In this document: one piece after another, positions 13,101 through 16,100 of the stretch
How positions within the stretch are numbered: position 1 is the stretch's first letter
Layout of the letters: every line of letters starts with the position of its first letter
Assembly: GCF_003704095.1 (NCBI RefSeq)
Contig: NW_020843886.1
Location: 1 to 64,000 of the forward strand
Source of the DNA: Pocillopora damicornis
Lineage: Eukaryota
Reading direction: 5' to 3'
DNA: 64,000 nt
Made by a program: the position numbers

Positions 13101-16100
13101 AAATGGCAATCCAAAGTGAGGTAAAAATCATCTCTGAAATGGATTGTGGCGAATGTTTTGCCTTGGTCAGTCCTGCGGTAGGTAACACTTTTTCTCCTAA
13201 AAAAATTTTCGGTCTGAGTTATAATATTGCATTCTAATTTACTTTCTAGCATAAATTTGTTTGAATACTCTAGTTAGCAGTAAGTGCTTAACTCCGCATA
13301 GAGAGATGCAGGTTTATCCAGGGCCAGGGGTTGACAACCACAATACATTTAATAGTGGCTTACCCACTGTAATTAACCTGCTCAGTGTTGGGTTTGACTC
13401 TACCATAGAACCTACGGTTTACAACTCTTCTGAAAATAGGTCAGCTGGGCACCCTGTTTGCATTCTGCAATCCGTAAGTGCAAGTTTGGCTGAAAAATCT
13501 GTGAATCGATTCTTTTTTAATAGTCAACCACCATTGGCGTCCAACATCTACTTGCAAAAAGTGAGGAGAGGTTATTTCCTGGCGCTTGTGTCAAGCTGGT
13601 CACCACATATGTTGGAGAGCAAAACACTCTTCGTGAAGACAAAGTCAGGATGGCACTGCTTAGTGGAAAAGCGAGACTGGTCATTCTCATTCCTACCAAG
13701 GTATGGCTTTAGTACTAGTGATGTCTTAATAATAAAACTTCTGTGTTCGTATTGATTGAATCTCCCAAAAAAAAAAATGAAAATTTTTTTCTTCCTCAGT
13801 ACTGAAAACATTCATATAATTTCCTCTCTTCATTCTCAACCTCATTATTAAAAATTGCGAGTGCACTTACCATTCCAATTTGGCTTTACATAACAATATT
13901 TTATTTAATTGCTATTAACAACTGGTTATCAATTAATCAATTAATTGCTTTTATTCATGATCTTCTAATTAGTGTTTTCAGAGTTCCCTACTGACAGCAG
14001 TCTTGCGACTGGAGGCGTTACCTCTTAAGATAGTCAGTTGTTTCAAGTTGTAAATAACAAAAGAAACCAACATAAAGAACCCAATGATTTTCAGTCGGCA
14101 AAACGTTTTTTAGAATCTTAGAGAGAGCTTCTCTTCCTACAACACGTTGAAGTGCTAACTGCTGCTAGTAGTTGGATTATGACAATCCACGAGAGGTACT
14201 TCCTGGTTAACAATCATATGATTTTAACCTCCCACAATCGCGTGTAAAACCCAGAAAGCACTAATCAATAAAGGTAACTTTCTGTATTCTTAGGTTCATC
14301 ATACGCCAACCGATGGCCTTGAGAATCAAAACTATTCAGGTACAAAACTTAAAATTTAATTCACAAGTCCAGTTGGAATTTTTGTGATACAAGATTACCC
14401 TATGGAGCTTTACCTAGGTCTTAATTACAAGTCAAGTAAGGTTCTGGTGTTTTGACTTGCCAAATATCAAGCACTCAGGTCAGGGAACAGAATAGCTCAA
14501 TTGTTATGTNNNNNNNNNNNNNNNNNNNNNNNNNNNNNNNNNNNNNNNNNNNNNNNNNNNNNNNNNNNNNNNNNNNNNNNNNNNNNNNNNNNNNNNNNNN
14601 NNNNNNNNNNNNNNNNNNNNNNNNNNNNNNNNNNNNNNNNNNNNNNNNNNNNNNNNNNNNNNNNNNNNNNNNNNNNNNNNNNNNNNNNNNNNNNNNNNNN
14701 NNNNNNNNNNNNNNNNNNNNNNNNNNNNNNNNNNNNNNNNNNNNNNNNNNNNNNNNNNNNNNNNNAGAAAGAAAGAAAAATAGATGGCAGGATAGTTGTG
14801 TTTATTTAAAAGAAATTGTTCACTGATCCTTTTCATTTCCCATTTCAAAGTTACGGGTATGCCAAAACTGGACCGAGACGCCCTTCAAAGCTGTCACGTA
14901 GATCTTATTGCCAATATTGGGGACTTTACATCGTTATGTGCCTATCTTTATCAATACAATATCTTGACGGCCGATGATAAGGCATTTCTGCGAAGTTTTC
15001 CACGTCCATCAGATGGCATCGATCACTTGCTAATGATGATACCCAGAAAAGGGAATATTTTAGACATTTTCATACGTATCTTGCAGCAATCACGAGAAAA
15101 TCAAGAAGCTGCCAAACGTTTAGTGTTGAAACGTCTACAGTTACACAGAAAGACAGAGAGTAAATGACTTAATGTGTGATTGAATACATTTTAAAAATTG
15201 GTTGTTCACTACTCGACACAATGTTTCATTACAACTAGTTTTTCACAGGAAACAACACTCTGTCGTTATACACATTAATAACCAAGCAAGAACTCCTGCT
15301 TTGTACACATTGCTTAAACTTTATTAGCTTAAGATGTACAACCTCTGATATCCTCTATTCAGGACTTCAAACGCCTTATCCTGAACACTTTTTAAGATAA
15401 ACTACTACTAACGAAGTAATATGAATTAAAATACCTGGCAAAGAGTTTCATCTAGGGGTGAGAGAATTTCAGATGTTAAGATCCCTTAACGTACCAAATT
15501 ATCTGTGAACTTTTTACTTACCTTTTTGAAAATTTTTGTGAAATATGTCAGCGAGATTCGATCTCTATCTTAGTTTTTTGTCTGACTCAATCGATTAAAT
15601 TAAAACAAAAGGAAATATACACAGTATAATGCCTCTAGTCTATGGACGCTGAAGTTCACTCAATGGAACCTCATCTCTGATGATTATCAGGTTGAGTTCA
15701 GGTTGAGTTCAGGTTGAGTTCAGGTTGAGTTCAGGTTGAGTTCAGGTTGAGTTCAGGTTGAGTTCAGGTTGAGTTCAGGTTGAGTTCAGGTTGAGTATAA
15801 AGCTGGCAACTGAATGATGCAGTCAGAAATTTCTTTCTCTTTTCCCTTTCCACTCTTTACAACAGTGATATCTGCGATACTTGTGACTTGGTTTCCTTAT
15901 GAAGGAAGAAAGTAATAGTTGTGATTACTGGGAAGAAAACATCAGTTCCCCTACAGGAACAAAGTTCCTTGCATTTTCAAGTAGTTTTTTACTTCAAAAG
16001 AATAATAACTGACAACTTTACGACTCAATCCAGCTATACTGACCTTCATCCATTTGAAGGCTACTAAAACCTAACACCTCTCAGTAAGTGTAAACAACTC

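What the first reader, a model, noticed from the sequence alone, without database searches (positions are those of the whole stretch)
14851..15167. CARD exon inside the cluster: CARD-only protein or C-terminus of a UPA-CARD adaptor
Seen: an intact CARD ORF with its own ATG and a good acceptor 8 nt upstream. It is on the same strand as adaptor B, about 0.8 kb after its last identified exon, with a 256-N gap between. Inference: either a CARD-only regulator or a spliced UPA-CARD protein that could bridge DD-less ZU5-UPA receptors to a CARD caspase, replacing the DD-RAIDD link.
Basis: partly seen in the sequence, partly recalled or inferred. Interest (0 to 1): 0.68.

Follow-up and report, generated by a model that had tools for sequence, protein, structure and literature searches.

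The report
Last exon of coral CARD adaptor
An intact caspase-recruitment (CARD) exon in a coral-type genome that is most likely the tail of a larger, still unnamed adaptor protein shared by corals and sea anemones, not a stand-alone mini-protein.

Summary
The CARD ORF is real: ATG 14859 to TGA 15167, 102 aa, Pfam CARD above its cut-off. An AG acceptor lies 8 nt upstream and the 256-N gap at 14510-14765.

The fusion reading is the better supported one. The CARD's nearest relatives include 354-459 aa anthozoan proteins with a disordered N-terminus, a ~150-aa domain, a 17-aa linker and a C-terminal CARD. They come from Acropora, Montipora and Nematostella and are all 'uncharacterized'.

The window carries that domain as three collinear exons on the same strand (12349-12470, 13004-13177, 13524-13700).

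A 46-nt exon at 14294-14339, or one hidden in the gap, is needed. It restores the frame, the family's linker length and a conserved Val codon.

Not shown:
- No transcript or fused protein is on record for the window's own CARD clade.
- 'UPA' rests only on two weak language-model leads. Pfam, PDB-sequence and profile comparisons found nothing, and all structure jobs failed.

A CARD-only product from the conserved Met is not excluded.

Best analogy: the UPA-CARD fragment of CARD8/NLRP1, here encoded without a ZU5.

The parts
12349..12470 (+). Exon E1 of adaptor gene B, the start of the conserved N-domain (..CFIAIFKRGVLSGKNRSHVVYVIPREKFDL). It enters in phase 1 and leaves in phase 0.
   Evidence: The family HMM matches positions 112-149 at 12354-12467, E 1e-5. 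There is an AG at 12347-8, directly after the 100-N gap, and a donor TTG|gtaaga. A relative's read-through ORF (P0062) places an intron at or within one residue of this boundary.
13004..13177 (+). Exon E2, the middle of the N-domain (VYDKIAQNEAAAYEGTE...FALVSPA), phase 0 in and 0 out.
   Evidence: HMM positions 146-209, E 1e-8. tblastn with P0010 aa 163-220 gives E 4e-5 at 36% identity. Acceptor ctcag|G and donor GCG|gtaggt. The boundary matches the read-through end of P0084.
13524..13700 (+). Exon E3, the end of the N-domain (STTIGV...ARLVILIPTK), phase 0 in and 0 out.
   Evidence: HMM positions 212-267, E 2.2e-7; translation. Donor AAG|gtatgg. The same donor position is kept in window paralogs A, C and D and in P0052's read-through.
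13710..13736 (+). Alternative end of a CARD-less product. If the E3 donor is not used, the frame stops at 13710-13712 (..IPTKVWL*) and an AATAAA lies at 13731-13736.
   Evidence: This is sequence only. AATAAA occurs 71 times on this strand of the 64 kb, so one this close has roughly a 4% chance expectation (my estimate).
14294..14339 (+). Candidate 46-nt bridging exon E4 (VHHTPTDGLENQNYS plus a final G), phase 0 in and 1 out.
   Evidence: Acceptor ttcttag|G and donor CAG|gtacaa; open frame. Of 33 open, phase-fitting AG..GT candidates in 13703-14509, it is the only one that is 46 nt long and also ends in G. It gives the same 17-residue spacing between the 'P' of ..FP/IP.. and V-T-x-M-P as in P0010. 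It has no sequence similarity to the family linker.
14510..14765 (.). 256-N assembly gap inside the last intron. It was left unfilled and could hide the true bridging exon.
14851..15167 (+). Exon E5, the CARD exon. It enters in phase 1 (G|TT = Val), reads V-T-G, then Met 14859 and the 102-aa CARD, and ends with TGA at 15165-15167.
   Evidence: Pfam CARD above its cut-off. Family HMM E 2.6e-31. V at -3 is conserved in 14 of 14 fused relatives and in 17 of 19 exon-ORF relatives.
15425..15430 (+). First poly(A)-signal-like hexamer (ATTAAA) after the CARD stop, 258 nt downstream.
   Evidence: This is a motif only, with no RNA evidence.

Best explanation
The CARD ORF is the last coding exon of a multi-exon gene ('adaptor B', at least 12349-15167, + strand). 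The gene encodes a ~150-residue, strand-rich N-domain, a short linker and a C-terminal CARD. It is a divergent member of an anthozoan protein family that public annotation calls only 'uncharacterized' or 'CARD domain-containing'. Shown: the CARD is intact; the three N-domain exons lie upstream in the right order and on the same strand, with canonical splice sites; relatives carry both parts in one protein. Inferred: the exons are joined in one mRNA. Because 13700>14851 is out of frame, this needs a bridging exon. That exon is most likely 14294-14339 (about 60% given fusion); otherwise it is hidden in the 256-N gap. Inferred by analogy, and the weakest step: the N-domain is UPA-like and self-associates. 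Self-association would raise the local CARD concentration so that CARDs polymerise and recruit a CARD-bearing caspase, as the UPA-CARD fragment of CARD8/NLRP1 does. Since no ZU5 is fused to it, control would have to come in trans.
For: Relatives: 4 of the 9 best relatives fetched carry linker or N-domain residues before the CARD (P0005, P0009, P0010, P0011). In one search, 10 of the 25 hits are 354-459 aa with the CARD at the C-terminus: 3 are RefSeq models and 7 are ORFs on 1.5-4.0 kb Logan contigs. These ORFs are unbroken over 1.1-1.4 kb, which I take as spliced transcripts. Names: A. palmata LOC141879995 X1-X3, M. capricornis XP_068718180, M. foliosa XP_068702756, N. vectensis LOC5517729/A7RRZ6. 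The last is linked by hhalign at 96.9% probability, E 2e-10, and aligns over the whole N-domain.
Window: the family HMM hits four collinear + strand pieces, 12354-12467 (1e-5), 12989-13177 (1e-8), 13530-13697 (2.2e-7) and 14805-15134 (2.6e-31). tblastn with P0010 and P0011 gives the same order. Aligned exon by exon, E1, E2, E3 and E5 tile the family without overlap. The E2/E3 and E3-donor boundaries match read-through or truncated ORFs of relatives (P0052, P0084, P0083, P0090). P0062 places an intron at or within one residue of the E1 donor.
Splice logic: all four N-domain paralogs in the window keep a GT donor at the E3 end, so a further exon is expected. The CARD frame is open back to the acceptor. 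V at -3 is kept in 14 of 14 fused and 17 of 19 exon-ORF relatives. The residue at -4 is I, S, L or T in 19 of 19, each compatible with an 'NNA G|TT' acceptor. E4 ends in the G needed to rebuild that Val, ends '..S' like 8 of the 14 fused relatives (A in the other 6), and gives the family's linker length.
Analogy: the ESM-Atlas best hits for the non-CARD part of P0051 and P0010 are a CARD+UPA-FIIND cluster (0.76, 0.78) and a UPA/UPA_2 cluster (0.77). UPA lowers the filament threshold of the CARD8/NLRP1 CARD about 100-fold (PMC7794386, abstract and section 8 read).
Against: No record joins the parts in the window's own CARD clade. In the 46-row CARD tree, all 13 fused rows fall in the other clade (24 rows, support 98/94). 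The window's side holds the window plus 16 exon-only ORFs and 0 fused rows. The 'longer' search (180-2000 aa) with the CARD scored nothing among 70 candidates. All 15 listed members of its 52-member cluster are 102 aa.
The direct E3>E5 join is out of frame. E4 has no similarity to the family linker: hmmalign could not place it, and it lacks the Y-Y-E-A and W-L columns that are invariant in alignment A1. No such motif is present in the readable intron, and E4 is not conserved in the window's paralogs. A phase-fitting exon of the right length and last base would arise by chance in roughly 1 of 10 such introns (my estimate from the 33 candidates).
The first exon(s) of gene B were not found; E1 abuts a 100-N gap. 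3 of the 4 N-domain paralogs have no CARD exon downstream. A read-through stop plus an AATAAA follow E3.
UPA is unsupported by Pfam (0 of 12 members at E<=10), by PDB sequence searches and by hhalign against the neighbouring receptors.
Confidence: 0.65

Rival explanations
1. CARD-only protein. The exon is translated from its own Met (14859) on an independent transcript or one from an alternative promoter. That gives a 102-aa CARD acting as a decoy or regulator of CARD-CARD assembly, possibly alongside the fused form.
For: The exon has its own ATG with G at -3. The Met is nearly invariant across 23 CARDs and invariant in the fused relatives. In PDB alignments it lines up with the first residue of the caspase-9 and RAIDD CARD chains. 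No fused record exists in the window's clade. 3 of the 4 N-domain paralogs lack a CARD. A stop plus an AATAAA lie right after E3. The direct join is out of frame.
Against: Every 'CARD-only' relative seen is an ORF called on a genomic-type contig. 19 of the 33 carry intron-like read-through before the Met. In the other clade such ORFs sit next to fused proteins (P0058 with P0045, P0006 with P0005), so they are not evidence for a CARD-only mRNA. Coding-type conservation of V-T upstream of the Met holds across clades that share only 42-49% CARD identity with the window. A good acceptor lies 8 nt upstream. The GT donor after E3 is kept in all four paralogs.
Confidence: 0.2
2. The gene is fused as in the best explanation, but the N-domain is not a UPA. 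It would be an anthozoan-specific fold with another role, for example binding a ligand or partner rather than self-association.
For: No UPA, UPA_2 or UPA-FIIND Pfam match was found in any of the 12 A2 members and 3 further full-length relatives (P0019, P0081, P0092) scanned, or in any window exon. PDB profile searches hit only the CARD. hhalign against the neighbouring ZU5-type receptor exons gives probability below 1%. The Atlas scores of 0.76-0.78 are in a range that shuffled proteins often reach, by the tool's own statement.
Against: Two homologues only 47% identical both returned UPA-type clusters as best Atlas hits when only the non-CARD part was queried. Domain size (~150 aa), the strand-like alternating hydrophobic pattern, and the position directly before a death-fold domain after a ~17-aa linker fit UPA (inference and from PMC7794386).
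Confidence: 0.35
3. Decaying locus. Gene B has lost its 5' end or its linker exon, and the CARD exon is an unexpressed relic, like the truncated second CARD copy in the window.
For: The cluster shows rearrangement. CARD copy 2 (33613-33876) has lost its first ~30 codons, and partial copies of a neighbouring gene lie beside it. The N-terminal exon of B was not found. E4 lacks the family's linker motif.
Against: The CARD ORF and E1-E3 are all open, with canonical splice sites. The CARD keeps every conserved column. More than 20 related intact CARD ORFs at 68-97% identity exist on other contigs. The missing 5' exon is explained equally well by the 100-N gap that abuts E1.
Confidence: 0.07

Closest known systems
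Uncharacterized anthozoan N-domain-CARD proteins: Acropora palmata LOC141879995 (XP_074621482-4), Montipora capricornis XP_068718180, M. foliosa XP_068702756, Nematostella vectensis LOC5517729 / A7RRZ6
   Same: The order of parts is the same: disordered N-terminus, ~150-aa domain, ~17-aa linker, V-T-x-M-P and a C-terminal CARD. The window's E1-E3 and E5 match their HMM collinearly. The E2/E3 and E3-donor boundaries agree, and the E1 donor agrees to within one residue.
   Different: The window's CARD falls in a separate clade for which no fused record is known. Identity is only 26-36% in the N-domain and about 43% in the CARD. The family's invariant linker motif is absent. None of these proteins has a described function.
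C-terminal UPA-CARD fragment of CARD8 and NLRP1 (FIIND-CARD)
   Same: A beta-rich domain sits directly before a C-terminal CARD. CARD8's CARD is among the best PDB matches of the window-clade CARD profile (E 4e-8). The Atlas's best hits for the non-CARD part are UPA-FIIND/CARD clusters. The proposed working principle is oligomerising UPA lowering the CARD filament threshold (PMC7794386 abstract and section 8; PMC11874512 passages).
   Different: There is no ZU5 subdomain and no autoproteolytic FS site in the same polypeptide, so the protein would be made 'pre-released'. UPA homology is not shown by any sequence method. The organisms are anthozoans, whereas one survey lists FIIND-CARD on NLRs only for mammals and fish (PMC11508797, passages).
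PIDDosome: PIDD-CC (UPA-DD) + RAIDD/CRADD (CARD-DD) + caspase-2
   Same: RAIDD's CARD is the best PDB match of the fused-clade profiles (E 2.3e-4; 1.5e-6). A UPA-type domain next to a death-fold domain acts as the caspase-activating core (PMC7308375, passages).
   Different: Here the death-fold domain is a CARD, not a DD, so one protein would do what PIDD-CC plus RAIDD do together. No DD, LRR or ZU5 is present. Cnidarian CARD-caspases are a separate 'caspase-X' grouping (PMC10959488, passages).
CARD-only proteins of mammals (ICEBERG/COP type; recalled, not from a call)
   Same: A ~100-aa protein made of a CARD alone is what the ORF from Met 14859 would give.
   Different: Those genes are duplicates of the caspase-1 prodomain. 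This exon has a splice acceptor, conserved coding residues upstream of its Met, and fused relatives.

Membership tests
CARD (Pfam PF00619) | Sequence match to the family model above the curated cut-off | tested here: met
   27.9 bits against a cut-off of 23.9, E 2.5e-6, covering profile positions 1-77 of 85. PDB CARDs are matched at E 1e-8 by the clade profile.
CARD (Pfam PF00619) | Six-helix death-fold bundle | not tested
   No model was made of the CARD.
Anthozoan N-domain-CARD family | N-domain coding sequence upstream of the CARD, on the same strand and in the same order | tested here: met
   Four collinear HMM hits with E from 1e-5 to 2.6e-31. Exon-by-exon tiling.
Anthozoan N-domain-CARD family | Both parts on one mRNA / one polypeptide | not testable with these tools
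   No RNA data or eukaryotic genome collection was on hand. No fused protein of this clade is in the protein sets.
Anthozoan N-domain-CARD family | Conserved linker (..FP-x-A-Y-Y-E-A..W-L..) between the N-domain and V-T-x-M-P | tested here: not met
   E4 has the right length but none of the motif. No such motif is in the readable intron. The 256-N gap is unread.
FIIND-CARD proteins (CARD8, NLRP1) | ZU5 subdomain with an autoproteolytic FS site N-terminal to the UPA in the same protein | tested here: not met
   No ZU5 match in any family member. The part N-terminal to the domain is low-complexity. So this is not filed as a FIIND protein.
FIIND-CARD proteins (CARD8, NLRP1) | UPA subdomain | tested here: inconclusive
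   No match to the Pfam UPA, UPA_2 or UPA-FIIND models. PDB sequence searches found none. ESM-Atlas leads at 0.76-0.78. The fold test did not run.
FIIND-CARD proteins (CARD8, NLRP1) | CARD directly C-terminal to that domain | tested here: met
   Met in the relatives. In the window it is met only under the inferred splice model.
ZU5-UPA-DD proteins (PIDD1, UNC5, ankyrin) | C-terminal death domain | tested here: not met
   The C-terminal domain is a CARD; no Death match.
RAIDD/CRADD | N-terminal CARD plus C-terminal DD | tested here: not met
   Only the CARD resembles RAIDD. Here the CARD is C-terminal, and no DD exon follows it.
CARD-only proteins | Transcript encoding the CARD and nothing else | not testable with these tools
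   All CARD-only records are ORFs called on contigs; 19 of the 33 have intron-like read-through.

The most novel reading that the evidence does not exclude
A 'split FIIND' death pathway. Anthozoans would encode the active UPA-CARD piece of a CARD8/NLRP1-type sensor as a free protein. The ZU5-type piece would sit on the cytoplasmic tails of TNFR-type receptors encoded next door (17383-19395 and 37072-38634, - strand). The receptor tail would hold or recruit the free UPA-CARD in trans. An extracellular TNF-like signal would then be wired straight to CARD filament formation and a CARD-caspase, without any death-domain adaptor. This would place the UPA-CARD assembly principle at the base of animals, before inflammasomes.
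Probability: 0.12. Interest if true: 0.85.

Novelty: new variant of a known kind. Interest (0 to 1): 0.5.

Why it matters
If the model holds, corals and sea anemones have a free-standing adaptor in which an oligomerising domain is coupled directly to a CARD. In vertebrates that arrangement is known only as the released, active fragment of CARD8 and NLRP1. This would push the logic of UPA-promoted CARD polymerisation back to the cnidarian-bilaterian ancestor. It would also give coral cell-death and immunity research, including bleaching and disease, a concrete and testable adaptor. The adaptor sits in a cluster with TNFR-type receptors. On the practical side, the locus shows why gene callers report a 102-aa 'CARD-only' ORF: a 46-nt micro-exon and an assembly gap separate the CARD from the rest of its gene.

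Tried and rejected
- Pfam on every window exon and on 15 full-length relatives, looking for UPA or ZU5: only CARD was found.
- PDB sequence searches with family profiles A2 and A9, and with the receptor ORF: CARD chains only, or nothing.
- hhalign of the family against the three receptor exons: probability below 1%.
- Search for longer proteins holding this CARD: none among 70 candidates.
- Search for the 5' exon of gene B through the window's paralogs: none.
- Search for paralogous conservation of E4 or the intron: none.
- Search for a family-type linker motif in the readable intron: none.
- Death-fold ORFs downstream of paralogs A, C and D: none seen by eye.
- Caspase active-site motif anywhere in the six frames: none.
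- DD-like ORF 6676-7020: no Pfam or PDB support.
- Structure prediction: the first job failed. No fold search could be run.
- Complex prediction (two copies of the N-domain): the job was never accepted. There is no verdict.
- Rejected reading: the direct splice 13700>14851, which is out of frame.
- Rejected reading: the 'CARD-only' database ORFs as evidence for a CARD-only gene. They are exon ORFs from contigs.
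Full report
WHAT IS THERE. The stop-to-stop ORF 14796-15167 on the + strand holds an ATG at 14859 and a TGA at 15165-15167, giving 102 residues. Pfam's CARD model matches above its curated cut-off: 27.9 against 23.9 bits, E 2.5e-6, profile positions 1-77 of 85. No other death-fold family appears at E<=1. An AG at 14849-14850 sits 8 nt before the ATG, behind a tract with 16 of 20 pyrimidines. The N run 14510-14765 is 256 long. The upstream exon 13524-13700 is on the same strand. The distance to it is 1,150 nt, not about 0.8 kb.

SOURCE. The named relatives are all anthozoan: Acropora, Montipora and Nematostella. I take the window for a coral-type cnidarian genome. Nothing in it was taken for human.

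RELATIVES OF THE CARD.
- phmmer against 1.84 billion representatives gave 21 hits at E<=1e-3 and 11 at E<=1e-10; I fetched 13 of the 21.
- Two kinds of record appear. The first kind is ORFs of about 100-136 aa called on contigs. A word-indexed search in the 56-179 aa range returned 21 such proteins, none named. 19 of the 33 tabulated start with intron-like read-through before the Met.
- The second kind is long proteins with the CARD at the C-terminus. A profile search returned 25 hits, of which 10 are 354-459 aa: 3 RefSeq models and 7 ORFs on Logan contigs of 1.5-4.0 kb. In the window the homologous coding pieces are spread over at least 2.8 kb with introns. I therefore read those unbroken ORFs as spliced transcripts (inference).
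- The RefSeq names are all 'uncharacterized protein'.
- The sea-anemone protein P0019 (N. vectensis A7RRZ6, LOC5517729, 'CARD domain-containing protein') joins the family. hhalign gives 96.9% probability, E 2e-10, and it aligns across the whole N-domain. The architecture is therefore at least as old as the split of anemones and stony corals.

THE WINDOW CARRIES THE REST OF THE PROTEIN. An HMM of 12 family members hits four pieces on the + strand, in order:
- profile 112-149 at 12354-12467 (E 1e-5);
- profile 146-209 at 12989-13177 (E 1e-8);
- profile 212-267 at 13530-13697 (E 2.2e-7);
- profile 270-378 at 14805-15134 (E 2.6e-31).

tblastn with P0010 and P0011 gives the same order. Read against the DNA, the exons are:
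- E1 12349-12470, phase 1 in and 0 out;
- E2 13004-13177, phase 0 in and 0 out;
- E3 13524-13700, phase 0 in and 0 out;
- E5 14851-15167, phase 1 in.

All have AG/GT borders. Aligned exon by exon, they tile the family without overlap. The E2/E3 and E3-donor borders coincide with the places where relatives' contig ORFs run into introns or begin (P0052, P0084, P0083, P0090). P0062 places an intron at or within one residue of the E1 donor. The joined product was not built, translated, searched or folded, so no result here rests on a joined sequence.

THE FRAME PROBLEM. E3 ends in phase 0, but the CARD frame needs one base from the previous exon (G|TT = Val). Read in phase 0 from 14851, the frame stops after 16 codons. 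Between E3 and the gap there are 33 open AG..GT intervals of 10-300 nt that convert phase 0 to phase 1. Of these, 7 end in G and 2 are 46 nt long. Only 14294-14339 is both, and it has ttcttag|G and CAG|gtacaa borders. It would end '..YS' plus a G. That rebuilds the Val and the S-V-T-x-M-P seen in 8 of the 14 fused relatives (A-V in the other 6). It also gives exactly the 17 residues found in P0010 between the Pro of ..FP.. and V-T. I estimate that such a fit arises by chance in about one intron in ten. Against it:
- the peptide has no similarity to the family linker and lacks its invariant Y-Y-E-A and W-L;
- the readable intron holds no such motif;
- the window's paralogs do not conserve it.

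An exon inside the 256-N gap remains possible.

CODING SIGNAL UPSTREAM OF THE MET. Position -3 is Val in 14 of 14 fused relatives and in 17 of the 19 contig ORFs that reach that far; it is Gly in the other 2. Position -4 in those 19 is I, S, L or T, each of which can end in A and so form the same 'A G|TT' acceptor. This holds across clades that share only 42-49% CARD identity with the window. All four N-domain paralogs of the window keep a GT donor at the E3 end. Both facts say that the CARD exon is not a first coding exon and that E3 is not a last one.

WHAT SPEAKS FOR A CARD-ONLY PRODUCT.
- In a tree of 46 CARD rows, all 13 fused rows lie in one clade of 24 (support 98/94). The window lies on the other side with 16 contig ORFs and no fused row. 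The tree used 27 of the 33 contig ORFs; P0029, P0033, P0035, P0040, P0041, P0080 and the fragments P0012, P0013, P0016 and P0043 were left out. The five outgroup rows have long branches, so their place is unsure.
- The search for longer proteins found none among 70 candidates.
- All 15 listed members of the window's 52-member cluster are 102 aa.
- The Met is conserved and aligns with the first residue of the caspase-9 and RAIDD CARD chains.
- A read-through stop (13710-12) and an AATAAA (13731) follow E3.
- 3 of the 4 N-domain paralogs have no CARD downstream.

In the fused clade, however, the same kind of contig ORF sits right beside fused proteins. Absence of fused records may therefore only mean that this clade has no transcript-derived or annotated entries.

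WHAT THE N-DOMAIN IS. Sequence methods do not call it UPA:
- Pfam finds nothing for the window exons or for the 15 full-length relatives scanned;
- PDB profile searches hit only CARDs;
- hhalign against the neighbouring receptors' exons gives nothing.

The only positive sign comes from two ESM-Atlas queries with the non-CARD parts of P0051 and P0010. Their best hits were a CARD+UPA-FIIND cluster (0.76 and 0.78) and a cluster with UPA/UPA_2 on 16% and 14% of its members (0.77). The tool itself rates scores under 0.9 as leads only.

WHICH CARD. A profile weighted to the window's clade matches caspase-9 (E 1e-8), CARD8 (4e-8), RAIDD (6e-7), CED-3 and NOD1. Profiles of the fused clade put RAIDD first (2.3e-4; 1.5e-6). 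No subfamily can be assigned beyond this apical-caspase / RAIDD / CARD8 group.

NEIGHBOURHOOD.
- On the - strand lie two paralogous receptors, 17383-19395 and 37072-38634. The first has TNFR cysteine-rich repeats (Pfam E 5.8e-21). Both have a ZU5-like exon that stays below Pfam's cut-off (E 0.095 and 0.039).
- A third TNFR gene lies at 6676-9793.
- N-domain paralogs lie at about 2340-3214, 23217-24078 and 39247-39709.
- A second CARD copy at 33613-33876 has lost its first ~30 codons.
- No caspase motif is present in the window.

HOW IT MOST LIKELY WORKS. By analogy, not shown: the N-domain self-associates and thereby concentrates the CARDs. These polymerise and recruit a CARD-caspase. The model is CARD8/NLRP1:
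- UPA lowers the CARD filament threshold about 100-fold (PMC7794386, abstract and section 8 read);
- ZU5 blocks UPA oligomerisation (PMC8081665, passages);
- UPA is needed for signalling (PMC11874512, passages).

Compared with the PIDDosome (PMC7308375, passages), one protein would replace PIDD-CC plus RAIDD. Because no ZU5 is fused, the protein would be born 'released' and would need control in trans. The ZU5-type receptor tails next door are candidates, but nothing here tests that.

KNOWN OR NEW. The family exists in public protein sets but without a name or function. Terms included UPA, ZU5, FIIND, UPA-CARD, coral, cnidaria, Acropora, Nematostella, TNFR, PIDDosome and RAIDD. They found no description of a ZU5-less UPA-type-CARD protein in cnidarians. 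PMC8195603 (passages) mentions FIIND and UPA-ZU5 fused to TRADD-N in animals. PMC11508797 (passages) lists FIIND-CARD only on mammalian and fish NLRPs. PMC8260672 (passages) lists ZU5 and CARD among the domains found on cnidarian NLRs. I rate the finding a new variant of a known kind, with moderate interest. The gene model is likely but unproven, and the most interesting part, UPA identity and the link to the receptors, is still a lead.

LIMITS. No eukaryotic genome or read collection was available, so synteny in relatives and RNA support stayed unchecked. The gaps were left as they are.

Noticed in passing
window 33613-33876 (+): A second CARD copy. It is homologous to the first only from about 14953 onward, so it lacks the first ~30 codons, yet it is still an open frame. 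A matching truncated ORF exists on other contigs (P0043). The 3' flank is also duplicated (15323-15999 resembles 34124-34752).
   Followed up: partly
window 2340-3214, 23217-24078, 39247-39709 (+): Three more paralogs of the adaptor N-domain (A, C, D; C and D are 50-61% identical). All keep a GT donor at the same codon position as gene B, but no CARD or other death-fold ORF was seen downstream, so what they splice to is unknown.
   Followed up: partly
window 17383-19395 (-) and 37072-38634 (-): Two paralogous receptors (76% identical in the ZU5-like exon). The first has five TNFR cysteine-rich Pfam matches; the second's cysteine-rich exon was read by eye only. Each also has an apparent membrane-spanning stretch and a ZU5-like exon that is below Pfam's cut-off, followed by two more conserved exons and no death domain. 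TNFR fused to ZU5 was not found in the papers searched.
   Followed up: partly
window about 17480-17560 (-) and about 37160-37240 (-): At the end of the ZU5-like exon the two receptors read ..THYFATFAVV.. and ..TDHFTTFAVV... This is about where FIIND proteins carry their catalytic F-S pair (PMC8081665, passages). Whether either receptor self-cleaves is open.
   Followed up: no
window 6676-9793 (-): A third TNFR-type gene (cysteine-rich exon 9479-9793, membrane-span exon 8424-8984). Its last ORF, 6676-7020, looks death-domain-like by eye but has no Pfam or PDB-sequence support.
   Followed up: partly
window 14841-14850 (+): In most relatives of the window's clade the residue six places before the Met is Gln, where the window has His (CAT). 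If that Gln is CAG, those species would have a second acceptor 9 nt further upstream in phase 0. That would allow a direct in-frame join from the E3-type exon without a micro-exon. This is inferred from protein letters only.
   Followed up: no
window 15687-15796 (+): A perfect tandem array of an 11-nt unit (TCAGGTTGAGT, 10 copies), 520 nt after the CARD stop.
   Followed up: yes
window 44989-49079 (-), 32955-33296 (-), 30488-30730 (-): A gene with BMT5-like methyltransferase and FDX-ACB domains, plus a partial extra BMT5-like copy further upstream beside the truncated CARD. The ORF at 30488-30730 resembles the FDX-ACB exon by eye only. This is a sign of a segmental duplication with a breakpoint in the CARD exon.
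   Followed up: partly
window 60494-61561 (+): A large exon with three cadherin repeats and a FAT4-like N-terminal cadherin domain (Pfam E 5.2e-39). It is unrelated to the death-fold cluster.
   Followed up: yes
relatives P0081, P0082, P0051 (A. palmata LOC141879995 X1-X3): The three RefSeq isoforms differ only at the very end of the CARD: X2 and X3 lack the last helix. Alternative 3' ends inside the CARD may therefore be a feature of the family.
   Followed up: no
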